In this document: positions 8,001 to 53,986 of the stretch, in pieces | Numbering within the stretch: position 1 is the stretch's first letter | How the letters are laid out: the number at the start of each line of letters is the position of its first letter | Virus record (IMG/VR): IMGVR_UViG_3300045988_171839 | Location: 1 to 64,000 of that record | Length of the DNA: 64,000 bases | Direction: 5' to 3' (one strand) | Origin: a virus | Program-made: the position numbers and the translations under genes | The notes under the pieces: generated by a model | The model's input: the letters and a program-made list of their open reading frames with translations, nothing else | What the model was told of the DNA's origin: nothing | The model's database searches: none

Positions 8001-11000
8001 TGCACGATACGCGTCTGTACCTGCAAGTCTGTTATAAGCACCATAATTACGTATAGCATATTCATTGGCAATAAGGGCATATTTTTCAACCTCTTGTTTG
8101 TCAAACAACATCGACATATTCTTTTTGAAGGCCTTCTTTGCCTCCATAAGAATCTCAGGATCATTTTTAATTTTACTTTCGGAAAAGGCGTGCGCGAGAG
8201 TCCCGATTAAAGTACCCACAACACTCTTCCTATCTTCTTTAAATTGCTCCAAATCGGTATAATCGAATTTTTTTGCCTTTTGTTCAAGACTAAGGCTGCC
8301 CCACCTGGTCTTAGAATCTTTAAATCCTATTATTTTCCCCTGCAGATAGCCTGCGGCAGATTCGTCCCCATAATAGGGATTTAAACTTGCCGCGATACCC
8401 GTTGGTGTCATATAGGTTTTTCCATAGCGTTCGTTAAGACCGCCTCGGCCTTGTTTAGCAAGCAAGTCTCGAATTTCTTCTAATATACTAACAATTTTAG
8501 GATCAAATCCTGTTTTGTTGCCCTTTTCCTCTGTAACTGTCAGTTTGTTGATGGCTTTGATAAGTTCTCCAGCTGCCGTGCCCAGTCCTGTTGGGCCGGT
8601 TTCTTCACGGAATCGTCCGTGTGCTTGTTTAGCTTTTGCCAAAAAGTCATCATCTAAATTACCACCAAACGCCTTTAATGTGCCTACACTAAAACCAAAT
8701 TGATTAAAAGCTCCGTTGTTCAGCGCATTAAGTAATAAAGATTTAAACTGGGCTTCATTACCTCTGAAACTTTCCCAATCCCGATATTTATCAATGGTTT
8801 GGGCAATAGCGTCCAAATCAGCTTTGACAATACCAGACTTTTCCAAAGCTTCGTACGCTGAAGCATTTTGGCTCATCGCTAAAGTGCCCAATATTCGTTG
8901 GGAACGCCAGGCCTCTAATTTGTTGTCTTTATAGATTCCTTGTTCCGCACCGGCTTGAATCACATCGTTCACATTTGCTTTATTTTTGTAAACTTCATCA
9001 ATAACTTTGTTAATCGCGATATTAAAAGACTTGTCAAGTTGCTCAGCGAACGTTTGTTCATCAACTTTGTCCAAATCGGAACCAAGCGTGGTTTGCATAT
9101 CTTGGATTGCAACGTCCCAAAGTTTCTTAGAAGAAATCGCATTTTGCTCAGCTTGTTCTAGTGCTTCAAAAACAAACGACCCCTTAATAAAGTCGATAGT
9201 TGAATTCAAATCTCCGCCTACAACAGCACCCGTACCCAACTTTTGTAACTCTAAAACATTTCGAGCACCTTTTGCAACGTTGGACCAGTTACCTGTTTTA
9301 TCTTTCGCCTGGTTTTGATAGGAACGCACTATTGCCATTTGCTTATCGTTTAACACTTGATTTTTCGCCAAATCAAGAATTACCGATGAGTCGGCGTCGG
9401 ATGAGGTAATAGCCGGAATGTTCTTTCCTATAACTCTATATAAAAATTCATTATAACGTTTGACTCTTTCCAAAGTTTCGTCTAACCAGCCAAACTGTTC
9501 GGGAGTAGCGTCGATCAGCTTGGCAGCCTGTCGAAGTTGAACTAACGCGGTGTATAATTTATCACCGTCAAAGTCCCCCATGATCAATTTGTTGAGACCA
9601 CGGTTACTTTCGATTACGTTTGTTCCTAGGCCCTCTTTACCAAAGACCAACCCTCCGTATTGTAAGTTAATGGCTTGGCTATAAGGCTGCCTCCCCAATA
9701 CAGCTTCAACACCGCGACTTAAAATAGGATTCGTGCCGCCATAAAAATTCTGATGTTCTTTGGTTCCCGTGGTAAAAATATTGGTCGCAAAATCGACCAT
9801 TTCGGCAAAATTCTTAAAGTTTTGATTGGCGAGAGCTGATTCGATAGCTTTGTCTTGCCCCTGTTCTGCAAAAAGTTGTAAATATTGAGCCAAGTTTTCT
9901 ACAAAGTCGTCGCTCTTGTAAGCGTTCAACCCAAGTGCGACACTTGCTCTAATATGTTCTTTATCGACATAGGTACCGCTATCCTTCATGCGTTCGCGCA
10001 AGGCGTCAACTTCATTCGCAGTATCTGTCGCTACAATATTGGTATTTTCGCCATAAAACGTAGAGTACGCTAAACGTTTCTTATATCTCTTATCATATCT
10101 CTCTTGAGCCGCTTGTCTTGCTTCTTCTTGGTTATGAGCCATTTTTGCCAAGAATTGCTCATTGACCGCCCCGCCAGTGTTTTCAAAGTTGTAAGCCTCT
10201 GCCTTTAAGACAGCGGTTAGCAAGTCTTTCTTTTCAGATGCTGATGCGCCCGCTTGAACTGCCATAAGCAAGTTTTCCAAGCTTTCGTTATAATCCCCAA
10301 TTTCATCAGTGTATTTGCCCAAATCGAGATATCGCGCTTCTCCCATATCCGCGCCCAAATCAACCAAAATTGTTGCCAGCTTTGCTTGAGTTTGGTCCAT
10401 AGATTGCAACTTCTCATCAAGTTTACCCCAAATGGTTTCATCTCTGTATTCGGGATTACTTTGTCCGTTGTCTAATTTCTCAGTGCGACGAAGTGTGTTT
10501 ATGTCAATAAAGTGTGCTTGATTGCCATACATGTCTCTCGAGCCAACAACGATTGTGTTAACACCCGCATTTCGATTGATATAATCAGGGTTTAACCCCG
10601 CTCGCGAACCTATTAGTTGAGCTTGACGCTCAATATGTTCATTATAGTCTCGTATACGTTTCTTTTTTTCTTCGATATCCTTTGCGGTTGCTCCAAAAGC
10701 GACAAGTTGGACAGTTTGTAAAAAATCACTATTCTCGGGGGTTATTTCCACACCGGCTGCGCGAGCCGAACGTTCAAGATCTTCTACTTCCCAGTTTGTT
10801 GGCAAGCTGGCCGCACCTCTTGGTTCATATTCACCATAACGTGCGCCAACAACATCAGTAAAGCTAGACGCAAGGGCCTTAGTTTGTAATTTCCCATCAA
10901 CAATTTCATATCCATTTTTTCCGCCCGTCAACTCATCTAACAGATATAAGGTTTCACCCGTAAATTTGGTACGAGCCGATACGTTTGAGCCCACGTACTT

Positions 11001-13361
11001 GTCCAAAGCATCGCTAAAGCTCAATTTTTTCAACAAAACGTCAACTAAGGCTTGTCCAATGTTGGTCGACAGGTTTGTGGTATCAAGGTTGTTCACACTG
11101 GCTTCAATTTGACTCTTATCTAGTTCATTTATCGCGTTGTCTATAGCCCGAGTTACAAGTGGTCCGATATTTCTTGAGCTGGTTTCCTCTCTTGCTGATA
11201 TTACCGTCGCCCGCGTCTTGTCGGGCGTTAATTCAACTCCCGTTATTGTCGAAATGGCTTTAATAAGTTCTTGACCTACCTCACGATATACGACACGCAG
11301 GTTGCCGTAGGCACTATTTGCTTTTGTGCCCGTATGTGCCCTTACTAGTTCTCTACCCGTTAAGGTCACATCTCCTGTCTCGGGATCAACATAGAGATCA
11401 ACCTTGCCTTTTGCGGCCTCTCGGCCTTCGGCAGCCAAAAGTTTTTTATAGGCGTCTTGTTTGGTTTGAGCACTTTTCTTTTTCTTACCCTCTAGCCCGT
11501 ATTTTGACAGGTCAGCTTTAGAAATTTTAACCGATACGCCCTCTCGAATTGTATCCAAATTCTCAATTTCATCTTTGGACACCAAGGCCATTCCATCAAC
11601 CAAACCCTCGATTAAGTCACGATTTTTATCAAGGAGTTTCGCCGCGTCTTGTTTCTCCTTGTCTGTGCTCGTAAGCAAATTACCAACTTGTTCAAACAAT
11701 CGGTTGATGTCAACCTCTATATTTTGTACACGTTCGGGTGGACCTTGTTTAGCATAAGCTTGGATATCGCGACCTTGTATTTTACGAGTTACGAGGGCCA
11801 TTTTGTCCTTCATTTCTTTGGCGCCCCACAGTCGATAATGGCCAGAATCTTCTTCGCTCATTGAACCAACAGAAGGTAGCCAAGAAAAGTTTTTATTAAA
11901 TTCTCGCATTACTGCGTCTGAGAGACCGTTTTTCATTTGTTGGTCTCGTAAACTCTTTTGTACGCCAATATCCCGCTCCCCAAATCCAGCAAAGCTAACA
12001 AACATTTTAGAAAACAATCTAACGAGCTCTGCTTCAGTAAGGGTAGAACCTTGCGCTTTCTCAAATTTTGCTAAACGTTTCGCCTCATTCTCAAAACGAG
12101 TTCTGCTTTCAACTAACGCTTTATCTGCGCCAACACCATACAAGTTGTCTTGTCGATCAAACTTTGAGGTTGATTTGTGAACAGTTTCGTCTTTGATGTC
12201 CCCAATACGTTTACGCGCACTTGCGATTGTTTTGGGAGCATGTTGAGACATCTCTACAAATTTTTGCGCCTCAGCATCCGATACTTTTACTCTCTTAGCT
12301 TGATCAACCACATAATCGTCATTTCGCTTATCTAAGCCCCCAACCGCAAAAGAAGCAGTGGCAGCATTTTGACGATTTACCTTTCCCGTTCTATCAAAAG
12401 CATTGACACTATTTTTATCATAAACAATAACTTTAATCTCTTGAGAACCCTTATCTCGAGCAAAACTGACGCCATATCCCGCCTTTTGCATATTAGCAGC
12501 ATATTCTGCTGCTTGTTTGGCACGCTTTTTGCCCTCTTCCGTAATTTTACGGGGATCGAAATATTTAAGAACTATAGCTTCTGCTTCTTTCTGCGTCGAG
12601 AAAGCGTTTTGTTGTATTTTTTCTGCGACCTTTGTTACTCTACGAGCACTACCACTAACGTCCTTGTTGGTTATCGTTGGATTGTAATCGGGATTTTTTT
12701 GTTGTTTGGCCTTTTTTGCCATATCTAAGAATTTGGCAATTTCTCTATTCACCGCTGGCGAGCCACTCGTGGATGAAAAGTCCGCTAAAGTGGTGTTAGC
12801 AAGTGCTTTCTTGGCTTTTTTAAATTGTTCACTGAGGTCAGTAGAATCTTTTAAAACCGATTTGTACTCTTTGTTAATTTGTTCAAAGATGGCTCTATAA
12901 CCAGCAGAATATTTATTTAAGTTATTTAAACCTAAACCCTGATTTATCTTCGCCATAGCCAAGCGGCCAATTTCATCATCGTTTAAGCTACCGATAATTT
13001 TATCCACCAACGGCAACACTAACGTTCGAGTAGCTTCGTGGACTACAGCGGGAGGCAATTTGGCCATCTGTGTTGACAAACTCGAAAAAGTGTCTTTAAG
13101 AGTTTTCCTTAATTCACCAGGAAATTGTTCAAAATTATCTCGAATCCAAGCAAGCGCCTTTTGTTGGGCTTGTGTGATTTTTTGTTGTTGAACTGCAGCC
13201 TCTAACTGTTTATCAGTTGTTGTTTTTAAAGCGTCTGTTAAATATGTGGCTGTCGTCCCTAAATTCTCTGCGGTAAGTTGCGAATCTTCGAGCATCGCAA
13301 TAATTGCACTATCAGCCGAACCAACGCTTGTTAAAATGGGAGTATAGTCCATTCCTTCCAT
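2016..13361 (-). CDS. Giant (3,781 aa) multidomain tail tape-measure protein
   Basis: Single uninterrupted 11.3-kb ORF. aa ~2215-2400 (nt 6162-6719) match the TP901-type tape-measure core as I recall it (LSKLGMIEAGQATTYLTSMIKGFKL...VDKLTAVDMEAAVSAGGIAAAMQ). There are Gly/Ala-rich hydrophobic segments (nt ~4950-5110) and long coiled coils. Extra N-terminal signatures are described in the findings. Confidence 0.85.
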   Translation of the reverse strand: MEGMDYTPILTSVGSADSAIIAMLEDSQLTAENLGTTATYLTDALKTTTDKQLEAAVQQQKITQAQQKALAWIRDNFEQFPGELRKTLKDTFSSLSTQMAKLPPAVVHEATRTLVLPLVDKIIGSLNDDEIGRLAMAKINQGLGLNNLNKYSAGYRAIFEQINKEYKSVLKDSTDLSEQFKKAKKALANTTLADFSSTSGSPAVNREIAKFLDMAKKAKQQKNPDYNPTITNKDVSGSARRVTKVAEKIQQNAFSTQKEAEAIVLKYFDPRKITEEGKKRAKQAAEYAANMQKAGYGVSFARDKGSQEIKVIVYDKNSVNAFDRTGKVNRQNAATASFAVGGLDKRNDDYVVDQAKRVKVSDAEAQKFVEMSQHAPKTIASARKRIGDIKDETVHKSTSKFDRQDNLYGVGADKALVESRTRFENEAKRLAKFEKAQGSTLTEAELVRLFSKMFVSFAGFGERDIGVQKSLRDQQMKNGLSDAVMREFNKNFSWLPSVGSMSEEDSGHYRLWGAKEMKDKMALVTRKIQGRDIQAYAKQGPPERVQNIEVDINRLFEQVGNLLTSTDKEKQDAAKLLDKNRDLIEGLVDGMALVSKDEIENLDTIREGVSVKISKADLSKYGLEGKKKKSAQTKQDAYKKLLAAEGREAAKGKVDLYVDPETGDVTLTGRELVRAHTGTKANSAYGNLRVVYREVGQELIKAISTITGVELTPDKTRATVISAREETSSRNIGPLVTRAIDNAINELDKSQIEASVNNLDTTNLSTNIGQALVDVLLKKLSFSDALDKYVGSNVSARTKFTGETLYLLDELTGGKNGYEIVDGKLQTKALASSFTDVVGARYGEYEPRGAASLPTNWEVEDLERSARAAGVEITPENSDFLQTVQLVAFGATAKDIEEKKKRIRDYNEHIERQAQLIGSRAGLNPDYINRNAGVNTIVVGSRDMYGNQAHFIDINTLRRTEKLDNGQSNPEYRDETIWGKLDEKLQSMDQTQAKLATILVDLGADMGEARYLDLGKYTDEIGDYNESLENLLMAVQAGASASEKKDLLTAVLKAEAYNFENTGGAVNEQFLAKMAHNQEEARQAAQERYDKRYKKRLAYSTFYGENTNIVATDTANEVDALRERMKDSGTYVDKEHIRASVALGLNAYKSDDFVENLAQYLQLFAEQGQDKAIESALANQNFKNFAEMVDFATNIFTTGTKEHQNFYGGTNPILSRGVEAVLGRQPYSQAINLQYGGLVFGKEGLGTNVIESNRGLNKLIMGDFDGDKLYTALVQLRQAAKLIDATPEQFGWLDETLERVKRYNEFLYRVIGKNIPAITSSDADSSVILDLAKNQVLNDKQMAIVRSYQNQAKDKTGNWSNVAKGARNVLELQKLGTGAVVGGDLNSTIDFIKGSFVFEALEQAEQNAISSKKLWDVAIQDMQTTLGSDLDKVDEQTFAEQLDKSFNIAINKVIDEVYKNKANVNDVIQAGAEQGIYKDNKLEAWRSQRILGTLAMSQNASAYEALEKSGIVKADLDAIAQTIDKYRDWESFRGNEAQFKSLLLNALNNGAFNQFGFSVGTLKAFGGNLDDDFLAKAKQAHGRFREETGPTGLGTAAGELIKAINKLTVTEEKGNKTGFDPKIVSILEEIRDLLAKQGRGGLNERYGKTYMTPTGIAASLNPYYGDESAAGYLQGKIIGFKDSKTRWGSLSLEQKAKKFDYTDLEQFKEDRKSVVGTLIGTLAHAFSESKIKNDPEILMEAKKAFKKNMSMLFDKQEVEKYALIANEYAIRNYGAYNRLAGTDAYRAAEEKVRLNEDSFIVKGKTDAIYTSKRMAENGNDYQMFNVVDFKNEAKLGAKSIEQVLIYVEMYRRIKQDLDEIWRKEGETAALTKMTEQTLLSEATLRQLHQSLDVSAQLVQSYQGKTKVYNIADVPRNISQKLVEGMSLTAEEQKIISNSATASPQLTQTMSPDFQKKYQKATGETFGAEDFGTISVNYEKKLAEEQALKEQLDKAKGQYGDDSLVFKKLTKYYQDLVEEIKAFEKIRKEKIKELALTSDMVNEFTSSAKKEVDHSVAMGDLHFGYEKILKDDEKQRLLAQKQREAVLNQYKRYNDQIAKTEKDMLVLDKQSRTTPSKLERGIQADRGQIDILKAELKELVEKRNLLVENNKLTQAETAEADAQLQTKRELNRLKVAGMAKGAGNWLDVIGSGVKNTITRMFDYNGVYRILNRITQGLRQLVQQVNELDVAMFNLQVVSGDSRQEVSSLINDYGKLAQQLHTTTTQIAASANEWLRQGYEAGQANELIKASTYLSKLGMIEAGQATTYLTSMIKGFKLEAADAVNIVDKLTAVDMEAAVSAGGIAAAMQNVATTAQLAGLSIDKTIGYLSTMIEVTQRDPSSMGMALRTVLARYGNVKAGTFTNMTGIESSDADLENVNDIEKVLGKVGIRIRENAQEFRDFGDVIDELSEKWQKYDSVTKNAIATAMAGVRQRESFLVLMENKDRADELEDVSSLSRGTADTKYAAYEQTLMAAKADLQTSLQSLAKSIQDSGLLIAFTKLANILVKMVVPGFNALASMLWARNSFKLTEQIKYSLNQRKTAPVASLGFFAQKTQQEALRRQEWQQEFYKKKEGSNQTYVDRLLGKTSPKTALSSLTKALDDASIAVRGFTGAIKGSPVQSTTSSPVQSKTPVVDPRRLVYIGSHDVGEWHNIDEYAKGSRFRRPNRAKIRQDLRNGSITTDDVRNIKQMFYQDRQQTKALLGTHIKGNVAGAVGAGVTSALTTGFSQEGSAGAKATAGITAGALTGVGALFGPMGAAIGSTLGSILGPVFAKLVDKEENERKQRAEAAQKQLDALNSLNNTFDEVHDYTEKEYLTSEAILAIKESVNSIDEQMSAQGLDFDDYLKQAAVKMNLGEDFQTIEGIRELLTAADEKTRQKAQEVFDLAQSMAKVQTTQESKALSNMSAEEQRVYWRTLDKEYIKQAFITSGLEQMSLRQLSQTNLDDAIKQVAAQFEKLELTPKSFALYDSKGNVTDEATKYITDQLRKSDRMQELLHGSVLTLSEALQDKDKNANVIESFASALGVSTTRLEEMSKQLGALKLSDLVKSSSQLREMLNGLYGILDSYYETGYLDLDAQEKIISNYPEYVDFISDPSKIVDHINQITAGVKELHIRNSLNDWAKNEKNAEIYVRDFLKSYQNGKYEGLFTDKRYFGELSTPEQMLQRIELLLNADDENEAVLNAVKNKIIEGMQKHEAIATALAEQLDNSKKLESVNKYLDKSYEKQINALEEQKSALEQINSQREYENKLIEAKIKLENAQNEKKKVWREGVGWVYEADTAAIADAQKELEDLDNEKKINELQTQIDELQAQREYLGDIASTQELEGLKKVYESWQKEIGISNTGQAQALHYFAEAYTKIQRLNLDTTQTGSDGKKTEDYLKNISDKRIEALGAAKGAFEAGITEAPASQQDYTVGAVRQVAAYNDNLSKFKTQADAYLQAGGSKEELVKELGLTTDDKGTAVQKLDEILNRETVRLAPVRGARFDHGLYNNVSSVYTTWQPNSTNDAGFLAAKPSETYVLLNGGKWANVSRMFHIEHNKDLREPKYSGLIFGETKGTKQLFWNYDGIIYKASLRKDDYQKTQGVDDSFTGLPFYDSSSYAANPETALALEGWNSTKKSTFRGDSYATGTLSTAGGLSLVNDDPQYGLEGVITPQGTLTALPSKSGVVPADLTRNVWQLGEVAPNLIKQLVDINGKFSHTTGFGTDESFNVEHLDVHMVAQPGFDMDDFVRQLQAARNLTRHS

Positions 13362-39022: not shown

Positions 39023-39261
39023 CATTCTGTTACTTTAAGACTTATTTCTAAGCGGAGGGGCTCTTCATCCCCTCTCTCGCGTTTCTGTTGTTATATCGCG
39101 AGTTCAGACTATCGCACACCCGCTAACGCGGGTTCTCGTCATTTAGTCGTTCACGGTGTCATTGACTTCCGCCTTGTTATCCACTTCTGGACCTCCAAGT
39201 CAATTAGACAAGATTTAATCGAGCGGTTTATGTATTATGCCGCAAGTGCACAATGTTGTTC
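39023..39261 (-). ncRNA. Group I self-splicing intron (ORF-less, ~239 nt)
   Basis: Read on the minus strand. P1 pairs exon UGCAU with the internal guide GUGCA (39247-39251), giving U.G at the splice site. P10 pairs CAUU (39252-39255) with the exon 2 start GAUG. P7 strands are GACUAAAU (39141-39148) and GAUAGUC (39107-39113), as in Tetrahymena-type cores. The terminal G is at 39023. Confidence 0.75.
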
Positions 39262-42191: not shown

Positions 42192-43427
42192 CTACTCTTG
42201 AATATCTAAGTTAATACTATGATGCAACACGTTGTCACCATCAAAGATTAACAAGGTTTGGCTTGGTTTGCCAAACAAACGTTTGCTAAACGCATATTGA
42301 TCTACGCCAACAATACTACCATTTACATAAACTTTGAAATTGTTGAACGTTTTAAGTTTTTCACAATGATAATGGCCGACAAAAGCATAATCTACCACTA
42401 TCCCAGTGTAAGCAGTCATATTTTGGAAAAGCGTTGTAATATTATCATGGTGTCCATGAACAAATACGCCGGTCTTCCCGTTTTGGAAATTAATCATACC
42501 AATTTCCTGATCGAGAACATTTTCCTCAAAAGTAATGTTAGTATCTCTCAACCTTTCTTTTAAATAGAAAGTAATAAGCTTGCCATAATTTTCAGCCTCA
42601 ATACTTTCTTTAAGAGAAGGTGTCATTCGTGAATGATTATCGGTAACAGAATAATATCTCACATCTGGTGCAGCAGCCTGTAGTTGATTGAGCGTGTCTG
42701 CAATAATCTCGGATGCAACCATGATTTGTTCAACAACGTCGATTTGTTGCTCCAATCTTGCACTTGTGTGAATATGCCCTTGGCAATAATCGCCAAGTCC
42801 TAAAATATTTAATCTTTGGACATTGTTGTTTACACAATATCTAATTACATCTTGGATTAGTTTATTCACTCTTTTACGAGCGATGGTAATATTATATTTA
42901 TTATAATAATTATCAATCTCTACCCCAATATGTAAGTCCGACAACATTAAAACCGCTTCTGTGTAAGTATTTCCAACAGGATGATACACAACTTTGGGAA
43001 GTTTGGTAATATCCACAACCAACTCTTTCATCAAAGCTTTAAAATCATCCAAACGCGCTTCTTCTCTCATCATTCTTCGATAAGCATTTAAAGAATCGCG
43101 TGTTTTAACTTGTTGCTTATATAAATCTTGAATTTGTCCTTGGATTTCATCTTCCATTTCTTGGGTGGACAAATCTTCAACTGTTTTGTTGGATAATAAT
43201 TTTGAGTTTCTAGGCAATTCGCCGGAGCGTGCAAGTTTTTGCTTTACCCAACAACGATAATTTTCACCTGTCGTAAAAGGCATCCCCAACATCTCATTCA
43301 GGGCACTCCAGTTTTTTACTCCTAATGGTAACTCTTTGTGGGTTACCCCTATTTCAAACAAATCGTCCTCAGTTAAGTTTTCTTCATTAAACTTTTTGAG
43401 GAACTCTAAAAAGTCGGTTTGAGTCAT
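42192..43427 (-). CDS. Calcineurin-like metallophosphoesterase
   Basis: Motifs LSDLHIG, GLGDYCQGH, VHGHHD and GHYH appear in canonical order. Confidence 0.7.
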   Translation of the reverse strand: MTQTDFLEFLKKFNEENLTEDDLFEIGVTHKELPLGVKNWSALNEMLGMPFTTGENYRCWVKQKLARSGELPRNSKLLSNKTVEDLSTQEMEDEIQGQIQDLYKQQVKTRDSLNAYRRMMREEARLDDFKALMKELVVDITKLPKVVYHPVGNTYTEAVLMLSDLHIGVEIDNYYNKYNITIARKRVNKLIQDVIRYCVNNNVQRLNILGLGDYCQGHIHTSARLEQQIDVVEQIMVASEIIADTLNQLQAAAPDVRYYSVTDNHSRMTPSLKESIEAENYGKLITFYLKERLRDTNITFEENVLDQEIGMINFQNGKTGVFVHGHHDNITTLFQNMTAYTGIVVDYAFVGHYHCEKLKTFNNFKVYVNGSIVGVDQYAFSKRLFGKPSQTLLIFDGDNVLHHSINLDIQE

Positions 43428-43457: not shown

Positions 43458-43486
43458 ATACTATCACAATCTCTATTTTTTGTCAA
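43458..43486 (-). promoter_or_regulatory. Sigma70-type promoter
   Basis: The minus strand reads TTGACA, 17 nt, TAGTAT, upstream of the 42192-43427 gene. Confidence 0.45.
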
Positions 43487-43599
43487 ATTTTAGTGACATC
43501 CCAATTCTCTAATGAAGAGCAAAAAACCAACTATAAAACTATTATTTTACTCTTTCCATAGAATATTAGAACACCGTACCTTTCGACATCTACCCTAAA

Positions 43600-44352
43600 T
43601 CAGGTTTTTTTGGCCTGTCGAGAACGCCGTTTTAACTCGTTTTTGCGCTGTGTTAATTCGGTTTTATAACAATCGGGGCATAAATCCTTATATTTCTTTT
43701 TCCCCACGATAAACCTCTTACCACACGACCTACAAGTACCACTATATTCGCTAAATTGGAAATCTGTCTTAACCGTCCCTTTATTGTCAAAAAAATTTAA
43801 TTCGATTACATTCCCGTAAACAGGTTTCCCGTCTCTGAAATAGGCTTTCTGGTGCATAGTATATAAGTTGTATTGGACATTCCACTTGTCCATTTGTGCA
43901 ACTCTATATGGGCGGCGCTGGCGGCGGGTACCTTTAATCAACCCTTCCCAAACTTCCTGGCTACAAAAAAATCCATCTGCTCGTCCAAAAGAGCGTTGGC
44001 ACTCAACTAAAATTCGCAAAAACTCTTTGTATTCTTTGTCTACATCTAAACCTTCAATAAAATTATATTCTTTTGCTGTTAGCCCATAAATATATTTTCT
44101 ATTAAAGCCGTAATGTAACGCCTTCTCCCAAAACTTGTCAAAATACTCACGAGTTTCTTCTTCACTAAAACACCCTACAACTTGCGGTGACTCTAGTTCC
44201 ACCCAAATCTTATAGGCGGTCTCTTTAGTCACCCCTTGTTCTTGCCAATATTGACAAAGGTGTGTTTGTTCAGTGTTAATACTACGTCGTGTGTTATAAT
44301 ACCCTTGTTTTAACACCGCTTCTGAATTTTTATTCCAGTCCAAAATTAACAT
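43600..44352 (-). CDS. Hypothetical protein with C-terminal zinc ribbon
   Basis: AAGGAG SD. Contains CRSCGK...CPDC followed by a basic tail. Confidence 0.4.
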   Translation of the reverse strand: MLILDWNKNSEAVLKQGYYNTRRSINTEQTHLCQYWQEQGVTKETAYKIWVELESPQVVGCFSEEETREYFDKFWEKALHYGFNRKYIYGLTAKEYNFIEGLDVDKEYKEFLRILVECQRSFGRADGFFCSQEVWEGLIKGTRRQRRPYRVAQMDKWNVQYNLYTMHQKAYFRDGKPVYGNVIELNFFDNKGTVKTDFQFSEYSGTCRSCGKRFIVGKKKYKDLCPDCYKTELTQRKNELKRRSRQAKKT

Positions 44353-44355
44353 AGA

Positions 44356-44937
44356 TTAACTCCTTGTCATCACCGATGTGCGCAGTACAGCTAAGAATTC
44401 TTGTAAGGAATAATCAAGAGCGAACAGCTCATCTTCATTTTCTCGCACGAACACCGGGAGTTTAAAACATAAGATCGGATTTTTACTACCAACCACCCTA
44501 AATTCTAATTTAAGCTTCACGGCCTGATGCACCAATTCTAAAAACTTCTTATGATCCTTCATCCCCAACAATTGCATAATTTGTGGTTCGTCATATTTGA
44601 TCCACCCTGAGTCGTGCCAATTTGTTTTAGCCACATATATTAACACCCCAAACAAAGCTCGAACTTCCTCATTACTAATATTTAATAAAAAGTTCCATTC
44701 GTCCTCGTAAACCACGAAAGTTGTTAATGTATTTTTGGTATCAAGAGGGGCTTTTAATAAACAGTCCACAATTTGTTCAAAACATTGGTTATTTAATTCA
44801 AACCCGCGTTCACACTCAAGGAGAAATTCTCGTATAGAGCCGTCGGTCATGCCTTCGGCTCTTAACGAATTAATGATTTTTACAACGCTGCTGCCTTTCT
44901 CGATCGATTTGTTACAAATTTGTTCTTCAACTGTCAT
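44356..44937 (-). CDS. Hypothetical protein
   Basis: Start moved to the ATG at 44937 after GGAGGAG. Confidence 0.4.
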   Translation of the reverse strand: MTVEEQICNKSIEKGSSVVKIINSLRAEGMTDGSIREFLLECERGFELNNQCFEQIVDCLLKAPLDTKNTLTTFVVYEDEWNFLLNISNEEVRALFGVLIYVAKTNWHDSGWIKYDEPQIMQLLGMKDHKKFLELVHQAVKLKLEFRVVGSKNPILCFKLPVFVRENEDELFALDYSLQEFLAVLRTSVMTRS

Positions 44938-47809
44938 AGTCACAATCTCCTCCAAATAAGTTATCAGCATCGAAGTCAAAATCTAAATCTTGCCCCAAAA
45001 TTTCTTCCCACGCCGCTTGATTCCAATCGTCATCATCACACAACTCGCTGACTCGATCTTCGTGAATTACTTGTAAAGTGTATCGATTACCAAGGTATTC
45101 AAATCCAACTTCGTTTTTCACGGGAATTTGGACAATTCCACGAGGGATTAAATCCAACACGCTTTCGTCTAAAATGTCCCAAGCAAAATCCCAATTAAAC
45201 TGTTTGTATTCTTTTGATAAACAATGGCAGTAGTAAAGCAATTCTTTGCCACTGAACGACGCAGACTCAATCGCCTCTTGAATTTCCGTTCTGATAAATG
45301 TCATTGCTCCGAATCTAATCTCATCATATTCGTCACGATTCGGTAAATCAATATTATCAACAATGCTCTCCAAGGTTTTTACTTGTTTACGCGCTGTATA
45401 TTTGCGATACAAATCTTTAACAATAGCAAACCGTTCTTGATCAAATTCAAAACAATCCTCAAAGGTGGGTAACATACTTACCGCGTTTTTGTTGAAATTA
45501 ATATCAAAATCGACATTTTCAAATTCCTTACACAATATATTCATTATGCACGGTGCGGTGATTAGTGGCGAATACTTTTGATAACGGCGTACCAAATTCA
45601 TCTCGTCTTCTGACTTATTGGGTTTGGTTAAAAGTTTTTTAAATTTAATACCAAACATATTTTTGGACGCCATATTGTAACTGTTTTCGTATTGCTTGAA
45701 CTGTTGGTTTAACTCTGGATATAAGTATCTAAAGAAATATGGTTTTTTAGAAATAACCATCGAGTTTCTTTTATATTTATCCGCCTTAACCGCATCAGTG
45801 TCATCATCATTAATTCGGATGAATTTCTTCCACTCTTTCGGCAACTCCGGCGCGGCTGTTCCTTTAATGCGATCAATTTCTTGACCAACAATTTCTCGAA
45901 GTAATTTAATACGCAAAGTGAGTTCGTCTCTTTGTTCTTTTTGGGTGTCTTTTTGGAAAATTCCCTTCATTGCGTGCATTATTGTTGCGCAGTTAGAAAA
46001 ACCTCCAACCCCAGTTCCCAAACCGCGAATATCGGTCGCGATTGAATTCTTTAAACAAATTTTCTGAACCGGCACCGCACCTTTCTCATATGTAATGACA
46101 TTATGCCATTTTTGCGCACCCTTGATAAAGATTTTATTGTCCGTGGACATTACTACGTCGCCGTCAAAATCACTGTCAGAATGTCGTAATGTTGAAGTAT
46201 CATATATACTGTAAATGATTCCACTCTTAATATATTGATACCAATAGTCCATATCTTCGGACGATACTACTTTACAAGGGTTGTGTTCGTGCGAGTCAAT
46301 CATCGGACTGCGGCACAGGTCAACACAATCCACGTTTCTCTGCCTCCAAAAATTTGAATACACTTGGTCGGGCCCAAGTAACCCTACCGGTTCCAACCCA
46401 AGCGCCGATTGACACTGTGCTACGGGATCAGAAATCATAAAACTATAATTTCCTCTCACCCATATCTTACCAATCTTCGCCTTGTTTATCGTCTCAGCAA
46501 TATTGCGATATATTTTCTTCTGTACATGAGCGTCTTCCAACATTATCGGGTTTTTAATAATCGCCCTCAACGCCGTGCTTTGCGCCCCATTATACAATTC
46601 TTTAAAACTGACTTGTTCACCCTTGCAACCCAACATATACAACATTGTATACAATTGGTCACCTGAGCAAATCTTTTTAATCCAATCAATCGTCGGTTGA
46701 ATCAATTCCAGAATATCATCCTTATTGATATCCAACACTTGCAGATATTGATAATTGGCCAGCACATATTCGTCATCGTACTTTTTATTATATCTCGCAA
46801 CTCCCCACTGAATACCAGCCGCATCTACATACTTTTGATATTCATACCAAGATACATAATATTTATACATCTTGAATTGAGATTCACTCAATATAACATC
46901 AATATCCTCCAACCTGTGTGAGATTCCCCACCGGTCACGAATTGAGTCAATACCGTGTGCAGCTCCAAATTCTCGAAAATCAAACGGAACCAAGCACCCC
47001 TTCACAAAAACGCTACGGACAACGAACGACGACGGCGTATATGATAAATTCATATCTTCTGCCCACAGAGCCGCAAACTTAGGATCTATCAATCCCTGTC
47101 CATCAGCGCAGTTTAACTCGATATCCATTATTCTTTCTTTAATCTGTTTTTTCCCAGTCTCGGGATTGGGGCAAATCCAATCAACCGATTGATCCTTCAC
47201 CACATTAAAGAAATCCTTAACCACGCATACTCTCGGGGTTCGCACCCACATAACACTTGAAAACGCCAACGCAAAATACGCATGATATTTCGCCAAATTC
47301 ATTTCTGAAATTTTGGTGTCCAACCCGCACATCAGGTTTTTGTACAAGGTGTCATAAAGAGCTTCGTTAATAAAGGTAATAGTGTTGCGCCTCATTTGTC
47401 CCGAGCCGCAACAAAACCTCACATAATGAATACCGTTAACGTCAAAACCATTCTTGGCTAATTCTTTATATTCTTTCTTGGTCACGACTTCAACGTTAAT
47501 AATATCTTTAACAAACAACGCATCTGTCAAAAACCGATTAAGAATACCAGCTTCCTTGGTTCGTCCCTCTCTCTTCGCTGCTCTTATAGCGCGACGAAAT
47601 TGTTGGACATCGTTAAAAATCTCTCGATGACTTCTGGTATCATTATAATATTTTCTGATTTGCTGAAAAACCAGATTATCACCAATTGATACCAGCGCCC
47701 CATCGCGAGCTGCCTTAGATTTTGAATAATTAACTATATTTAAGTTGTTCTCTACAATAAAACTAGATTTAAGTTTAAAAACTTGATATAGGTTTTGTAA
47801 ATTAGGCAC
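44927..47809 (-). CDS. Single-subunit two-barrel polymerase candidate (YonO / cellular-RdRP-like)
   Basis: 960 aa with a GTG start after GAGGAAG. Signatures: DSDFDGDVV (nt 46157-46171), CRSPMIDSHEH ~50 aa upstream (compare NRAPTLH...NADFDGD in beta-prime), and YVRFCCGSGQMRRNTITF (compare F.xFSxSQLR....W.F of RdRPs). Confidence 0.55.
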   Translation of the reverse strand: MPNLQNLYQVFKLKSSFIVENNLNIVNYSKSKAARDGALVSIGDNLVFQQIRKYYNDTRSHREIFNDVQQFRRAIRAAKREGRTKEAGILNRFLTDALFVKDIINVEVVTKKEYKELAKNGFDVNGIHYVRFCCGSGQMRRNTITFINEALYDTLYKNLMCGLDTKISEMNLAKYHAYFALAFSSVMWVRTPRVCVVKDFFNVVKDQSVDWICPNPETGKKQIKERIMDIELNCADGQGLIDPKFAALWAEDMNLSYTPSSFVVRSVFVKGCLVPFDFREFGAAHGIDSIRDRWGISHRLEDIDVILSESQFKMYKYYVSWYEYQKYVDAAGIQWGVARYNKKYDDEYVLANYQYLQVLDINKDDILELIQPTIDWIKKICSGDQLYTMLYMLGCKGEQVSFKELYNGAQSTALRAIIKNPIMLEDAHVQKKIYRNIAETINKAKIGKIWVRGNYSFMISDPVAQCQSALGLEPVGLLGPDQVYSNFWRQRNVDCVDLCRSPMIDSHEHNPCKVVSSEDMDYWYQYIKSGIIYSIYDTSTLRHSDSDFDGDVVMSTDNKIFIKGAQKWHNVITYEKGAVPVQKICLKNSIATDIRGLGTGVGGFSNCATIMHAMKGIFQKDTQKEQRDELTLRIKLLREIVGQEIDRIKGTAAPELPKEWKKFIRINDDDTDAVKADKYKRNSMVISKKPYFFRYLYPELNQQFKQYENSYNMASKNMFGIKFKKLLTKPNKSEDEMNLVRRYQKYSPLITAPCIMNILCKEFENVDFDINFNKNAVSMLPTFEDCFEFDQERFAIVKDLYRKYTARKQVKTLESIVDNIDLPNRDEYDEIRFGAMTFIRTEIQEAIESASFSGKELLYYCHCLSKEYKQFNWDFAWDILDESVLDLIPRGIVQIPVKNEVGFEYLGNRYTLQVIHEDRVSELCDDDDWNQAAWEEILGQDLDFDFDADNLFGGDCDYDS

Positions 47810-47811
47810 TC

Positions 47812-48360
47812 TTAATCTTCCTCTTTTTCGCGTTTAATAATATCTAGCAAATCATTCACCGTTTGTGTCAAATCTAAATTTGTCAAAACGTATTTATTTT
47901 TATATTCCTTCTCGAACTCACAGAACTGTGCGTCTTCCGCAGCCATTCTCTTCTGGACAATTTCAACATCATCGCCCCGTTTCGTCAAGAATCCACGTTG
48001 TACATCCGTAGGTACAGAAATCAAAACAGCCACAATTTTTAATGGATGCTTTTCAAAGTTCCAATACTTCCACAAATCTCCAAGTCCTTTAGGATCGATT
48101 ATATAAAAATCACTATTTAACACTTGCGTAACTGTAGCAAAATATTCCACATCTCCAATTACAGTCTGCGCAATAATATCATCTTTATATTTATCCACAT
48201 CCTCAGGTCGAATAAAAATGTGAGTGTCACCTTCGTTAACTCTCTTAGGACGTGTGGTATAAGAACACACTTTCTTCATTCCTGTCAGTTGGCACACACG
48301 ATCGACGACCGTATCTTTCCCGGCGCCACTTCTGCCAAGTACACAAAATAATGTTTTCAT
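47812..48360 (-). CDS. Guanylate kinase-like nucleoside monophosphate kinase
   Basis: P-loop GRSGAGKDT and SYTTRPKRVNEGDTHIF (the guanylate kinase S.TTR.pR..E..G motif). Confidence 0.7.
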   Translation of the reverse strand: MKTLFCVLGRSGAGKDTVVDRVCQLTGMKKVCSYTTRPKRVNEGDTHIFIRPEDVDKYKDDIIAQTVIGDVEYFATVTQVLNSDFYIIDPKGLGDLWKYWNFEKHPLKIVAVLISVPTDVQRGFLTKRGDDVEIVQKRMAAEDAQFCEFEKEYKNKYVLTNLDLTQTVNDLLDIIKREKEED

Positions 48361-48361
48361 C

Positions 48362-48931
48362 TTATTCCTCGATAATCGACGAAGGGTTCCCTACAAGTTC
48401 AGGGTAATCGGCATAAAACTTCACCAACGCTTCTAAGTCGTTAAAGTTATGTATGATATAAAAATCTTCCTCATTACCTTCAACACGGTTACGCTGATGT
48501 TCAACATCGCCAGTAAATAATACGACCATATCAGCTAAATAATTAGCGCACATACGGTAATCGCTGCCTATATATATAACCGAGTCTCCAAAAAGACGAA
48601 TCTTTTCTATATCCGCTGCGGTTGCCGTTCTATAAGCTTCAGCATAGCTTTCAATCTCGATAGTGAGCTTGCAGTTCTCCGCAAGTTCTGTGATGGTATC
48701 AAGAAAATCTTCCGCGCCCTCTCGAATCCACAAATCAGGTACATTCAGACTTTTGATACAATTAATGATTTCGAAATCATGATCTTGACCACAGACCGTT
48801 TGGAATTTGTTTTCGTAAAAATCGATTACAGAATAATTAGTGTTGTATTTTTCATTAAGTTTTTTGGTTATTGTCTCCGCACAATTAAAAATTACATTGT
48901 CTTCTACAATTAGGTGTAAGTGTTTGCTCAT
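48362..48931 (-). CDS. Hypothetical protein (first gene of the leftward operon)
   Basis: AAGGAAC SD. No motif recognised. Confidence 0.4.
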   Translation of the reverse strand: MSKHLHLIVEDNVIFNCAETITKKLNEKYNTNYSVIDFYENKFQTVCGQDHDFEIINCIKSLNVPDLWIREGAEDFLDTITELAENCKLTIEIESYAEAYRTATAADIEKIRLFGDSVIYIGSDYRMCANYLADMVVLFTGDVEHQRNRVEGNEEDFYIIHNFNDLEALVKFYADYPELVGNPSSIIEE

Positions 48932-49005: not shown

Positions 49006-49034
49006 ATTATAACACATATCATCTTTAATATCAA
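49006..49034 (-). promoter_or_regulatory. Sigma70 consensus-like promoter (leftward)
   Basis: The minus strand reads TTGATA, 17 nt, TATAAT. Confidence 0.6.
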
Positions 49035-49092
49035 CATATGATGACATTTTTGTAAAGTTTTAAAAATTTTTTTATTTTTGTGTCATTGTAGG

Positions 49093-49121
49093 TTGACTTT
49101 TCTTTTCAAAGTTGTTATAAT
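49093..49121 (+). promoter_or_regulatory. Sigma70 consensus promoter P1 (rightward)
   Basis: TTGACT (49093-49098), 17 nt, TATAAT (49116-49121). Confidence 0.65.
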
Positions 49122-49123
49122 TT

Positions 49124-49387
49124 GGGTGGTGGGCGGGTATAGATAAGAAGATCTTTCTTATTTATATATAAATATATAATAATTATAAATATTAATATAA
49201 ATAATATTAATTATAATTAATATTGTTATATATTAAAAAATTAATAATATATTAAAATATAATTAAATATATATAACATATTATCATATAACATATATTC
49301 TATCATTATAACATATAATATGTTAAATATATATTAAAATATAATATAATAAAAAATAGTGATCTCATTCTCCCGACCACCCACCCC
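49124..49387. other. A/T island bounded by an imperfect G-rich/C-rich inverted repeat; candidate origin / DNA-unwinding element
   Basis: GGGTGGTGGGCGGG (49124-49137) faces CCCGACCACCCACCCC (49372-49387). By my count there are 9 G/C in the 200 nt 49161-49360. TATAACATAT occurs three times (49272, 49287, 49307). The palindrome AACATATAATATGTT lies at 49310-49324. Confidence 0.5.
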
Positions 49388-49517
49388 TATTATACACAGA
49401 AAAATACCATTTGTCAACTACCAATGACAGAAAATACAAAAAAAATAACAAATATTTTTCCCAAAGAAAAACTACCACACATACTCACAGAATCTTAAAG
49501 AATTATGTCATCTACAG

Positions 49518-49546
49518 TTGACTTTTAGAATCAAATAGTGTATAAT
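49518..49546 (+). promoter_or_regulatory. Sigma70 consensus promoter P2 (rightward)
   Basis: TTGACT (49518-49523), 17 nt, TATAAT (49541-49546). Confidence 0.65.
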
Positions 49547-53907: not shown

Positions 53908-53931
53908 TCCTCTATGTATTCTCTTAAGCAA

Positions 53932-53986
53932 GATGGTCGTCACGGTAAGAGTCCGTGGCCTGATGAAGGCATGAGCCGAAACCATC
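53932..53986 (+). ncRNA. Hammerhead ribozyme, type III (copy 1)
   Basis: GAUGGUC^GUCACGG-UAAGAGU-CCGUGGC-CUGAUGA-A-GGC-AUGA-GCC-GAAA-CCAUC. Stem III is 6 bp, stem I is 7 bp and stem II is 3 bp. The core CUGAUGA...GAAA is intact and the GUC cleavage site lies after 53938. Confidence 0.85.

What the first reader, a model, noticed from the sequence alone, without database searches (positions are those of the whole stretch)
44927..47809. Second DFDGD protein: a 960-aa YonO / cellular-RdRP-like single-subunit polymerase candidate in the early leftward operon
Three spaced signatures occur in the right order. YVRFCCGSGQMRRNTITF (aa ~129-146) matches F..FS.SQLR.....W.F of the RdRP family. CRSPMIDSHEHNPCKVV matches the R-x-P...H element that precedes the catalytic loop. 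SDSDFDGDVVM lies at aa 547-551 (nt 46157-46171). The gene sits three genes downstream of a consensus sigma70 promoter (49006-49034). This fits a T7-like logic in which host RNAP makes a phage polymerase that then transcribes middle or late genes. The long structural arm has few sigma70-like promoters visible. No DNA polymerase is visible in the window. An alternative role as a primer-synthesising or RNA-dependent enzyme is possible.
Basis: partly seen in the sequence, partly recalled or inferred. Interest (0 to 1): 0.75.

Follow-up and report, generated by a model that had tools for sequence, protein, structure and literature searches.

The report
YonO-type phage RNA polymerase gene
This 960-residue phage protein is a real single-chain RNA polymerase of the YonO / cellular-RdRP "two-barrel" kind, a family that is already known, so the call is correct but not a new kind of thing.

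Summary
It passes Pfam RdRP (PF05183, 44.7 bits against a cutoff of 23.8) and matches SPbeta YonO (tblastn E 6e-32). The catalytic residues D236-G237, R265, K270-G271, R500-x-P502 and D547/D549/D551 are invariant across 70 homologues, including the YonO branch. A confident AlphaFold model (pLDDT 86) matches RDR2 and QDE-1 (E 1e-18 to 1e-12), then the crAss-like virion RNAP.

It is the third gene behind a conserved sigmaA-type promoter. It sits at the head of an SPbeta-like packaging and structural arm, as yonO does.

This is a new member of a known family; relatives are already labelled "RNA-dependent RNA polymerase".

Which genes it transcribes is only inferred. A conserved sigmaA-type promoter heads the structural arm. 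The 3781-aa tape-measure protein carries its own invariant R-x-P...GDFDGDK block, which recalls the tape-measure-fused virion RNAP of Thermus phage P23-45. That second polymerase is not proven.

In relatives, a group-I-like intron splits the Phe codon of DFDGD.

The parts
44927..47809 (-). CDS of the 960-aa YonO-type single-subunit two-barrel RNA polymerase
   Evidence: ORF. Pfam PF05183 above cutoff. tblastn to YonO and phage relatives. AF2 pLDDT 86. Foldseek matches RDR2 and QDE-1 at E 1e-18 to 1e-12.
47372..47425 (-). YVRFCCGSGQMRRNTITF (aa 129-146), N-terminal conserved element of the RdRP/YonO family
   Evidence: G137 and R140 invariant, Y129, Q138 and F146 nearly invariant in 70 sequences. 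Lies inside the Pfam match.
46985..47251 (-). First (beta-like) barrel region, aa about 187-275, with ADGQG (D236-G237) and R265...K270-G271
   Evidence: D236, G237, G239, R265, K270 and G271 invariant, including in YonO. Beta-strands E194-275 in the model. The barrel assignment is by analogy with the invariant residues listed in PMC2919709.
46265..46315 (-). CRSPMIDSHEHNPCKVV (aa 499-515): the R-x-P element of the second (beta'-like) barrel
   Evidence: R500, P502 and E508 invariant, H509 nearly invariant.
46157..46171 (-). DFDGD (aa 547-551), catalytic metal-binding aspartate triad
   Evidence: D547, D549, G550 and D551 invariant. The homologous triad is essential in YonO (PMC5467207). In relatives, an intron-like insertion sits in the Phe codon at nt 46167.
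45983..46018 (-). GTGVGGFSNCAT (aa 598-609), conserved motif after the catalytic loop
   Evidence: G602, S605, N606 and T609 invariant in 70 sequences.
44930..45055 (-). Acidic, disordered C-terminal tail (aa 919-960), specific to this lineage
   Evidence: pLDDT below 50. Acidic tails are present in close relatives but absent from YonO, BUCT082, PMBT24 and TR-TP1.
49006..49046 (-). SigmaA-type promoter nearest the operon: TTGATA-17-TATAAT with TRTG, preceded by a TGTCA half-site
   Evidence: 11 of 12 plus TG. Conserved in L008, L009, L015 and L014. Palindrome with one mismatch.
49389..49429 (-). Upstream consensus sigmaA-type promoter (TTGACA-17-TATAAT, 12 of 12) with TGTCA-N8-TGACA
47812..48931 (-). 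Two genes ahead of the polymerase in the same operon: a 189-aa ORF and a 182-aa guanylate/dNMP-kinase-like ORF
   Evidence: The same order occurs in L006. PMBT24 has a dNMP kinase gene close upstream of its polymerase gene, on the opposite strand.
43600..44979 (-). Two small genes directly after the polymerase (207 aa, overlapping its 3' end, and 250 aa with a C-terminal CxxC...CxxC). Function unknown; possible accessory factors.
   Evidence: No Pfam, PHROG or NCBIfam hit. No BLASTP similarity to the small genes that follow the polymerase in SPbeta-like phages. Conserved in close relatives.
43458..43498 (-). Conserved promoter at the head of the structural arm: TGTCA-N8-TGACA overlapping TTGACA, 17-bp spacer with TGTG, then TAGTAT
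   Evidence: It is the only conserved island in the intergenic DNA. It is unique in the window and occurs once per close relative. It belongs to the same class as the control-region promoters. It is the only intergenic sense-strand sigmaA-like site in the 43-kb arm.
42192..43427 (-). Metallophosphoesterase/exonuclease, first gene of the packaging and structural arm, and the synteny anchor to SPbeta-like phages
   Evidence: PHROG 284 at E 2e-57. 35% identity to the BUCT082 metallophosphoesterase, E 2e-57, and 34% to the TR-TP1 exonuclease.
2016..13361 (-). 3781-aa tape-measure protein whose N-terminal extension carries the other DFDGD (nt 9561-9575) 39 residues after an R-x-P (nt 9684-9692). 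Possible virion polymerase, not proven.
   Evidence: Tape-measure domains lie at aa about 1930-3500. The motif block is invariant down to 41% identity, and only 3 clusters exist among 1.84 billion proteins. AF2 was poor, Foldseek found nothing and hhalign was weak.

Best explanation
The gene encodes a catalytically competent, single-polypeptide, two-barrel RNA polymerase of the YonO / cellular-RdRP lineage. It has a beta-like barrel (D236, R265, K270) followed by a beta'-like barrel (R500-x-P502, D547-F-D-G-D551). Host sigmaA RNA polymerase makes its mRNA from conserved, near-consensus promoters in the divergent control region; the polymerase is the third gene of that leftward operon. By homology with YonO of SPbeta, the enzyme is a processive DNA-dependent RNA polymerase that transcribes long polycistronic phage units. 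The most likely target is the 43-kb packaging, head and tail arm that starts immediately downstream. What is shown here: family membership, conserved catalytic residues, predicted fold, gene order and promoter conservation. What is inferred: DNA template use, which genes are transcribed, and the timing.
For: Pfam RdRP passes its cutoff. tblastn to YonO gives E 6e-32, to BUCT082 E 2e-113 over 95% of the length, and to phage proteins annotated as RdRP in PMBT24 and TR-TP1. Invariant catalytic residues across 20 and 70 sequences match the invariant set defined for two-barrel RNAPs (PMC2919709). The AF2 model has pLDDT 86 and pTM 0.81. The top 21 Foldseek PDB hits are RDR2 and QDE-1 at probability 1.00, followed by crAss phi14:2 gp66 at E 2e-4. 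The gene order of polymerase, small genes, metallophosphoesterase, terminase and portal mirrors SPbeta, BUCT082, PMBT24 and TR-TP1. It persists in a relative whose polymerase is only 40% identical. YonO is a strict DNA-dependent RNAP that transcribes the SPbeta late cluster as one operon (PMC5467207; PMC8270828). The promoters upstream of the operon are conserved in relatives. The structural arm has no internal intergenic sigmaA-like promoters, so a processive enzyme would be useful. In intron-bearing relatives both exons stay intact, at 83-99% identity, which shows purifying selection on the catalytic site.
Against: No activity, template or promoter data exist for this protein or its close relatives. 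The promoter recognised by YonO is unknown, so no target promoter can be assigned by sequence. The only conserved element between the polymerase module and the structural arm is a sigmaA-type promoter of the same class as those in the control region. No terminator-like site was found on the transcribed strand in that intergenic gap. Host RNAP could therefore serve the arm. Motif discovery found no recurrent non-sigmaA promoter candidate. The giant tape-measure protein may carry a second polymerase, which would allow a different division of labour.
Confidence: 0.72

Rival explanations
1. A two-polymerase relay like that of Thermus phage P23-45. [quoted passage not shown] The 960-aa enzyme would be the non-virion polymerase for early or middle genes. 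Host sigmaA RNAP would transcribe the structural arm from the promoter at 43498-43458.
For: The block R-x-PYSQ...ESNRG...GDFDGDKL in the 3781-aa tape-measure protein is invariant in relatives down to 41% identity and is the best-conserved stretch there. Its R-x-P to DFDGD spacing of 39 residues resembles beta'. There are weak collinear hhalign matches, DFDGD to DFDGD at E 0.027 and LGTGAVVGGDLNST to LGTGVGGFSNCAT. In the P23-45 precedent, gp96 has a DFDGD in its tape-measure N-terminus with no other detectable similarity, a second non-virion two-barrel RNAP, and late genes read by host RNAP (PMC10770324). A conserved sigmaA-type promoter heads the structural arm.
Against: The fold is not confirmed. 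The AF2 model has pLDDT 61, with the motif region near 26. Foldseek gave no match. There is no Pfam or PHROG hit. The hhalign probability is 1.8%. Four near-consensus, conserved sigmaA promoters in the control region suggest that host RNAP starts the programme without a virion enzyme.
Confidence: 0.2
2. The enzyme works on RNA or single-stranded templates. It could be an RNA-dependent RNA polymerase, or a primer or R-loop maker for replication at the nearby A+T-only region, rather than a transcriptase.
For: The Pfam family and the best structural matches are RNA-dependent enzymes, and solved QDE-1 complexes include DNA templates as well. This lineage scores on the RdRP profile where YonO itself does not. 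A pure A+T stretch of about 230 bp, flanked by convergent promoters, lies about 1.3 kb upstream.
Against: The closest characterised homologue, YonO, strongly prefers DNA templates and NTPs. The gene's conserved position at the head of the structural module matches the transcriptase role seen in SPbeta. The promoters flanking the A+T region are host-type.
Confidence: 0.05
3. The gene is a decaying or catalytically dead relic with no polymerase role.
For: Many database entries for this protein are 549-, 556- or 407-aa fragments.
Against: Those fragments arise from gene calling across an intron-like insertion. Precise removal of the insertion restores 957-960-aa ORFs. All catalytic residues are invariant in hundreds of relatives.
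Confidence: 0.02

Closest known systems
YonO of Bacillus prophage SPbeta (single-subunit DNA-dependent RNAP; Forrest et al. 2017, PMC5467207)
   Same: Significant sequence homology (E 6e-32, 25-28% identity over aa 65-609). Same order of the two barrels in one chain. Same invariant D, R/K, R-x-P and aspartate-triad positions. Same genomic position upstream of a metallophosphoesterase, terminase, portal and tail arm in a large siphovirus-like genome, including an integrase-like gene ahead of a giant tape-measure protein.
   Different: 960 aa against 839 aa. DFDGD instead of DNDGD. An acidic disordered tail replaces YonO's C-terminal CxxC...CxxC. It reaches the Pfam RdRP cutoff, whereas YonO does not. 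There is no HU gene and no 1.5-kb non-coding leader before the late genes; instead there is a 172-bp gap containing a sigmaA-type promoter. The host is probably a gut Clostridia member, not Bacillus.
YonO-like proteins of BUCT082, Enterocloster phages PMBT24/CB473P1, Thomasclavelia phages TR-TP1/2 and Clostridium phage c-st
   Same: These are the closest relatives from cultured phages: 28% identity over 95% of the length for BUCT082, and 25-31% for the others. Most share DFDGD. Gene neighbourhoods are similar.
   Different: None is biochemically characterised. Identity is at or below 36%. The small genes downstream are unrelated. In c-st, the region matching this protein is annotated as several separate ORFs.
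Eukaryotic cellular RdRPs (QDE-1, RDR2; Pfam PF05183)
   Same: Best structural matches over nearly the full length (E 1e-18 to 1e-12, TM 0.40-0.47). The protein passes the Pfam gathering score.
   Different: 11-14% identity. Those enzymes copy RNA or single-stranded DNA for RNA silencing. This one is in a dsDNA phage, in the genomic position of a transcriptase.
P23-45 gp64 (non-virion) and gp96 (tape-measure-fused virion) two-barrel RNAPs (Chaban et al. 2024, PMC10770324)
   Same: A phage with a giant tape-measure protein bearing a conserved DFDGD in its N-terminal part, plus a separate free-standing two-barrel RNAP. Late genes there are read by host RNAP.
   Different: No sequence similarity to either P23-45 protein was tested or found here. 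The virion polymerase in this window is unproven. The free-standing enzyme belongs to the YonO/RdRP lineage. The control region has host-type consensus promoters.
crAss-like phage phi14:2 gp66 virion RNAP (PDB 6vr4)
   Same: A two-barrel single-subunit phage RNAP, recovered by fold search (E 2e-4, probability 1.00).
   Different: It is much larger (about 2170 residues in the solved chain) and virion-packaged, with low TM scores (0.21 and 0.11). It is a more distant branch.

Membership tests
Two-barrel (double-psi beta-barrel) RNA polymerases | Metal-binding DxDGD loop in the beta'-like barrel | tested here: met
   DFDGD at aa 547-551. D547, D549, G550 and D551 are invariant in 70 homologues.
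Two-barrel (double-psi beta-barrel) RNA polymerases | Invariant R-x-P upstream of the aspartate loop (Rpb1 R446/P448 equivalent) | tested here: met
   R500-S-P502, 47 residues before D547, invariant. Feature list from PMC2919709.
Two-barrel (double-psi beta-barrel) RNA polymerases | Beta-like barrel with an invariant Asp and two basic residues (Rpb2 D837, K979, K987 equivalents) | tested here: met
   D236-G237, R265 and K270-G271 are invariant, including in YonO. The one-to-one mapping onto Rpb2 residues is inferred, not superposed.
Two-barrel (double-psi beta-barrel) RNA polymerases | Overall fold with two barrels forming the active site | tested here: met
   AF2 pLDDT 86. Foldseek top hits are exclusively RDR2 and QDE-1, then crAss gp66, then weak beta' chains. 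This rests on a predicted structure, not an experimental one.
Pfam RdRP (PF05183) | Score at or above the curated gathering threshold | tested here: met
   44.7 bits against 23.8, E 1e-11, aa 107-575 onto profile positions 51-465 of 582.
YonO-like phage/bacterial single-subunit RNAPs | Significant sequence homology to YonO in a single polypeptide, with the beta-like barrel N-terminal to the beta'-like barrel | tested here: met
   tblastn E 6e-32 to SPBc2 yonO. Alignment with YonO keeps all catalytic columns.
YonO-like phage/bacterial single-subunit RNAPs | DNA-templated, NTP-dependent RNA synthesis that depends on the aspartate triad | not testable with these tools
   Shown for YonO only (PMC5467207).
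YonO-like phage/bacterial single-subunit RNAPs | Transcribes the phage late or structural operon | tested here: inconclusive
   Gene order matches SPbeta. However, the only conserved element ahead of the structural arm is a sigmaA-type promoter, and the YonO promoter is unknown.
Named subfamilies of the Koonin/Sokolova classification (YonO, Cyano_RUMTOR_01356, CAC1139, CPE1103) | Best profile match to one of the 23 family alignments | not testable with these tools
   The family alignments are not held as text. In that paper's table of phage genomes with two RNAP hits, the rows read here give DFDGD for Cyano_RUMTOR_01356 entries and DNDGD for YonO entries, which hints at the former.
Tape-measure-fused virion RNAP (P23-45 gp96 type), for the other DFDGD protein | [quoted passage not shown] | tested here: inconclusive
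   The R-x-P...GDFDGDK block is invariant, but the AF2 model is poor, Foldseek gave no hit and hhalign was weak.

The most novel reading that the evidence does not exclude
This gut Clostridia phage lineage may run a three-polymerase programme. A virion polymerase fused to the tape-measure protein would belong to an almost orphan family (three 50%-identity clusters among 1.84 billion proteins). The YonO/RdRP-type enzyme would be the second polymerase. Host sigmaA RNAP would act at a set of five promoters sharing one operator. That would be an independent, mesophilic counterpart of the Thermus P23-45 system, built from unrelated polymerase lineages.
Probability: 0.2. Interest if true: 0.75.

Novelty: new member of a known kind. 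Interest (0 to 1): 0.4.

Why it matters
YonO-type polymerases are minimal relatives of the cellular transcription enzyme, and only YonO itself has been studied. Its promoter, and any factors it needs, are still unknown.

This lineage is abundant: several hundred metagenomic relatives were found, and the exact protein's 90% cluster alone has 570 members. It keeps more similarity to eukaryotic RdRPs than YonO does. It also sits in a compact layout, with a 172-bp gap and one conserved promoter-like element between the polymerase module and a 43-kb structural operon. That makes it a convenient system for asking what a YonO-type enzyme recognises.

If the tape-measure protein also proves to be a polymerase, the phage would broaden the P23-45 finding beyond thermophiles.

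Tried and rejected
Sequence searches of the PDB gave only chance hits. The single protein hit transthyretin at E about 0.03. The 70-sequence profile hit a phage portal over 60 residues. Only fold comparison linked the protein to solved RNAPs.

NCBIfam has no model that accepts this protein, nor one that accepts YonO itself.

A look-up of the exact protein's contig found nothing on record. A close relative supplied the context instead.

BLASTP of the 960-aa protein against the tape-measure N-terminus showed no similarity beyond the pentapeptide, so the two DFDGD proteins are not recent paralogues.

BLASTP of the two small downstream ORFs against the small genes that follow the polymerase in SPbeta, BUCT082, PMBT24, TR-TP1 and c-st found nothing. 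My idea that the 250-aa zinc-ribbon protein corresponds to YonO's C-terminal zinc ribbon is therefore unsupported.

k-mer motif discovery in the intergenic regions found only ribosome-binding sites and one GC-rich motif. That motif was not explained by extra Rfam ribozyme hits.

My first search for the late-promoter element used a spacer that was one base too long and missed the site. The corrected search found it.

Rfam did not recognise the insertion at the DFDGD codon, even at E up to 1. I call it group-I-like from other features, listed under the side observations.

The mapped SPbeta YonO start site (position 2225998 of the B. subtilis 168 genome) could not be transferred to the phage record without the host genome. 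No promoter comparison with SPbeta was therefore possible.
Full report
**Observation.** The window holds an uninterrupted 960-codon ORF at 44927-47809 on the minus strand. YVRFCCGSGQMRRNTITF is aa 129-146. CRSPMIDSHEHNPCKVV is aa 499-515. DFDGD is aa 547-551, at nt 46157-46171. A six-frame scan finds only one other D-x-D-G-D in the window, at nt 9561-9575 inside a 3781-aa ORF. That is the "first" DFDGD protein implied by the finding's title.

**What it is.**
- Pfam's RdRP family (PF05183) matches aa 107-575 at 44.7 bits, above its 23.8-bit cutoff, with E 1e-11.
- PHROGs places the protein in families of unknown function.
- tblastn against deposited phages finds 41 records, all at or below 36% identity. 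They include SPbeta yonO (E 6e-32), Bacillus phage BUCT082 (28% identity over 95% of the length, E 2e-113), Enterocloster phages, Thomasclavelia phages and Clostridium phage c-st. Several of these genes are annotated "RNA-dependent RNA polymerase" or "DNA-directed RNA polymerase".
- The large protein collection holds the exact protein and several hundred relatives. Most already carry PF05183, and one is named "MAG TPA: RNA-dependent RNA polymerase [Caudoviricetes sp.]".
- In an alignment of 70 sequences spanning this lineage and the YonO branch (25-29% identity between the two), these residues are invariant: D236, G237, G239, R265, K270, G271, R500, P502, D547, D549, G550 and D551. They correspond to the small invariant set that defines two-barrel RNAPs (PMC2919709).
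- An AlphaFold2 model from that alignment is confident, with mean pLDDT 86 and pTM 0.81. Only a loop at 808-814 and an acidic tail at 919-960 are disordered.
- Against the PDB, its top 21 Foldseek matches are all cellular RdRPs (maize and Arabidopsis RDR2, QDE-1; E 1e-18 to 1e-12, probability 1.00, about 900 aligned columns). Next comes the virion RNAP of crAss-like phage phi14:2 (E 2e-4), and then weak matches to beta' chains of multisubunit RNAPs.
- The viral structure library gives phage "RNA-dependent RNA polymerase" entries.
- Sequence-only searches of the PDB found nothing meaningful.

**A nuance.** YonO itself, BUCT082 and PMBT24 do not reach the Pfam RdRP model. This protein and TR-TP1 do. 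So this lineage sits nearer to the eukaryotic RdRP profile than the founding member of the phage group does. NCBIfam has no model for any of them.

**Context.** Downstream of the divergent control region, the minus strand reads as follows:
- a 189-aa ORF
- a guanylate/dNMP-kinase-like ORF
- the polymerase
- a 207-aa ORF
- a 250-aa ORF with a CxxC...CxxC
- a 172-bp gap
- a metallophosphoesterase/exonuclease
- a 401-aa ORF
- the terminase large subunit
- the portal
- head and tail genes
- an integrase-like gene
- the 3781-aa tape-measure protein

The exonuclease is 35% identical to the metallophosphoesterase that follows the YonO-type gene in BUCT082, and 34% identical to that of TR-TP1. The order polymerase, small genes, exonuclease or terminase, portal recurs in SPbeta, BUCT082, PMBT24 and TR-TP1. 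It also recurs in a 167-kb viral contig whose polymerase is only 40% identical.

More distant relatives lie in genomes of gut Clostridia: Lachnospiraceae, Roseburia and Oscillospiraceae. One fragment, 100% identical over aa 1-542, was binned with an uncultured Clostridia MAG. No close DNA match exists among deposited phages.

**Promoters.** It is one of four near-consensus sites in the 940-bp control region. The others are 49417-49389 (12 of 12) on the minus strand, and 49093-49121 and 49518-49546 on the plus strand. All are conserved in relatives whose genes are only about 75% identical at the DNA level.

Each one carries TGTCA seven bases upstream of its -35 hexamer. This forms the inverted repeat TGTCA-N8-TGACA, which overlaps the -35. 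The pattern TGTC-N8-TTGAC occurs 6 times in the window against 0.45 expected, and none of 100 shuffles reached 6.

A fifth promoter of exactly this class lies at 43498-43458, just upstream of the exonuclease gene. It reads TTGACA, a 17-bp spacer containing TGTG, then TAGTAT (TATGCT in relatives). It is the only conserved island in that intergenic DNA. It is unique in the window and occurs once in each close relative. It is also the only intergenic sense-strand sigmaA-like site in the whole 43-kb structural arm.

But the arm's head carries a host-type promoter co-regulated with the promoters that drive the polymerase gene. The scan found no terminator-like site on the transcribed strand in the gap between the polymerase module and the arm.

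**Mechanism.** YonO is a processive, strictly DNA-dependent RNAP whose aspartate triad is essential. It transcribes the SPbeta late cluster as a single operon. Its promoter sequence is still undetermined (PMC5467207; PMC8270828).

By homology and synteny, the most likely reading has three steps:
1. Host sigmaA RNAP transcribes the leftward operon that includes this gene.
2. The protein is a DNA-dependent RNAP.
3. It takes over transcription of long phage units, most probably the structural arm.

Membership, catalytic conservation, fold and layout are shown here. Template, targets and timing are inferred. The sigmaA-type promoter at the arm's head lowers my confidence in the target assignment to roughly even odds, although the identity of the enzyme is nearly certain.

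One comparison is worth noting. SPbeta and BUCT082 share 94% DNA identity across the 1.5-kb leader between yonN and yonK, while their polymerases are only 25% identical. Promoter use in this family may therefore not be tightly tied to polymerase sequence.

**The other DFDGD protein.** The C-terminal half of the 3781-aa ORF is a tape-measure protein. Its N-terminal 1900 residues or so match nothing in Pfam or PHROGs. That part contains LGRQPYSQAINLQYGGLVFGKEGLGTNVIESNRGLNKLIMGDFDGDKL, an R-x-P 39 residues before the DFDGD, as in beta'.

An exhaustive HMMER search of 1.84 billion representatives found only three clusters, at 94%, 52% and 41% identity. The whole block is invariant in all of them.

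There is a direct precedent. [quoted passage not shown] It was recognised only by its DFDGD. It transcribes pre-early genes, including the gene for a second, non-virion two-barrel RNAP, and late genes are read by host RNAP (PMC10770324).

My tests were inconclusive:
- The AF2 model from 10 sequences is poor, with pLDDT 61 overall and about 26 at the motif.
- Foldseek found nothing.
- hhalign against the YonO-like family gave only weak, though collinear, local matches.

I keep this as the main rival and the most novel reading. In the part of that paper's table of phages with two RNAP hits that I read, the non-jumbo phages pair members of the known families YonO, Cyano_RUMTOR_01356, CAC1139 and CPE1103. 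No combination with a tape-measure-fused enzyme appeared there.

**Side finding on the catalytic site.** In at least six relatives, an insertion sits at window nt 46167, inside the Phe codon of DFDGD. It is 313-314 nt long in L010-L013 and L015. It is 1040 nt long, with a GIY-YIG-type ORF, in L014.
- Removing it restores intact 957-960-aa ORFs, 83-99% identical to the window protein. Leaving it in stops translation at aa 549 or 556.
- Fragments of exactly those sizes dominate the protein's 90% cluster: the 549-aa form is on 68 contigs, against 22 for the commonest full-length form.
- The insertion follows a U and ends in G.
- It has stops in all three frames.
- It shows compensatory changes between copies, including an R/S-like pairing: ACGAUUA with UAAUC in the short copies, against ACGACUA with UAGUC in L014.
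- Its 34-nt 3' segment occurs in at least 120 viral contigs, in many different coding contexts.
- It behaves like a group I intron family, yet no Rfam model matches it at E up to 1.

The window's allele has no intron. Homing of a mobile intron into this codon is consistent with the site being essential.

**Verdict.** This is a new member of a known family that databases already label as such, so the finding is of moderate rather than high interest. The open questions are which genes it reads, and whether the tape-measure protein is a second polymerase. Those are where any novelty lies.

Noticed in passing
window 2016-13361 (-), especially nt 9561-9692: The N-terminal extension (about 1900 aa) of the 3781-aa tape-measure protein carries an invariant R-x-P...GDFDGDK block. 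The region is almost an orphan, with 3 clusters among 1.84 billion proteins. It recalls the tape-measure-fused virion RNAP of Thermus phage P23-45. In relatives the ORF is only about 2260-2395 aa.
   Followed up: partly
window nt 46167 (site empty here); L010:3012-3325, L014:11644-12683, also L011, L012, L013, L015: A group-I-like intron splits the Phe codon of DFDGD in relatives. It is 313-314 nt long, or 1040 nt with a GIY-YIG ORF. Removing it restores the full ORF. Its 3' 34-mer occurs in at least 120 IMG/VR contigs, in many different genes. No Rfam model matches it.
   Followed up: partly
window 49429-49389, 49046-49006, 43498-43458 (-); 49081-49121, 49506-49546 (+): Five sigmaA-type promoters share an inverted repeat, TGTCA-N8-TGACA, that overlaps the -35 hexamer. 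This looks like a common operator for a dimeric regulator. It links the control region to the head of the structural arm. The regulator was not identified.
   Followed up: partly
window 49093-49417: Two strong promoters, 49417-49389 (-) and 49093-49121 (+), face each other. Each is followed by a G-rich leader, and the two leaders are inverted repeats of one another (49388-49370 and 49122-49137). Between them lie about 230 bp of pure A+T. This could be a transcription-activated origin or an antisense RNA pair. It is conserved in relatives and remains unexplained.
   Followed up: no
window 57808-57888 and 61746-61825 (+): Two twister-sister self-cleaving ribozymes (61.5 and 70.5 bits) lie between small genes of the rightward arm. 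Relatives L014 and L015 carry them too. They probably process long polycistronic transcripts.
   Followed up: no
L011:4541-4753, L012:4514-4726 (insertion point = window 44938); L014:8004-8217: HEARO RNAs (the RNA partner of IscB) are inserted at the 3' end of the polymerase gene in close relatives. L011 has a 1.5-kb insertion at that point. The window lacks them.
   Followed up: no
window 39029-39259; L007, L009 and L006 at the equivalent site; L015:18399-18730: The gap after the terminase gene is a hot spot for mobile elements. The window has about 230 extra bases there. L007 and L009 have a 1056-nt insertion, and L006 has a LAGLIDADG gene at the equivalent site. L015 has a group I intron inside the terminase gene, and L006 has a GIY-YIG gene before the exonuclease gene.
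   Followed up: no
L001:6012-7545 against L003:7447-8996: SPbeta and BUCT082 share 94% DNA identity over the 1.5-kb non-coding leader between yonN and yonK. Yet their YonO-type polymerases are only 25% identical. This looks like a polymerase swap with the late leader kept intact.
   Followed up: partly
window 17154-17283, 19752-19809, 53908-54027, 59663-59839, 61748-61894: A GC-rich motif (GCAAC[G/C]CCCGTC and variants) recurs in five intergenic gaps on both arms. One of these gaps overlaps a twister-sister ribozyme. The others have no Rfam match.
   Followed up: partly
window 14074-15066 (-): An integrase-like tyrosine recombinase gene (PHROG 1, E 1e-30) lies inside the structural arm, just upstream of the tape-measure gene.
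   Followed up: no
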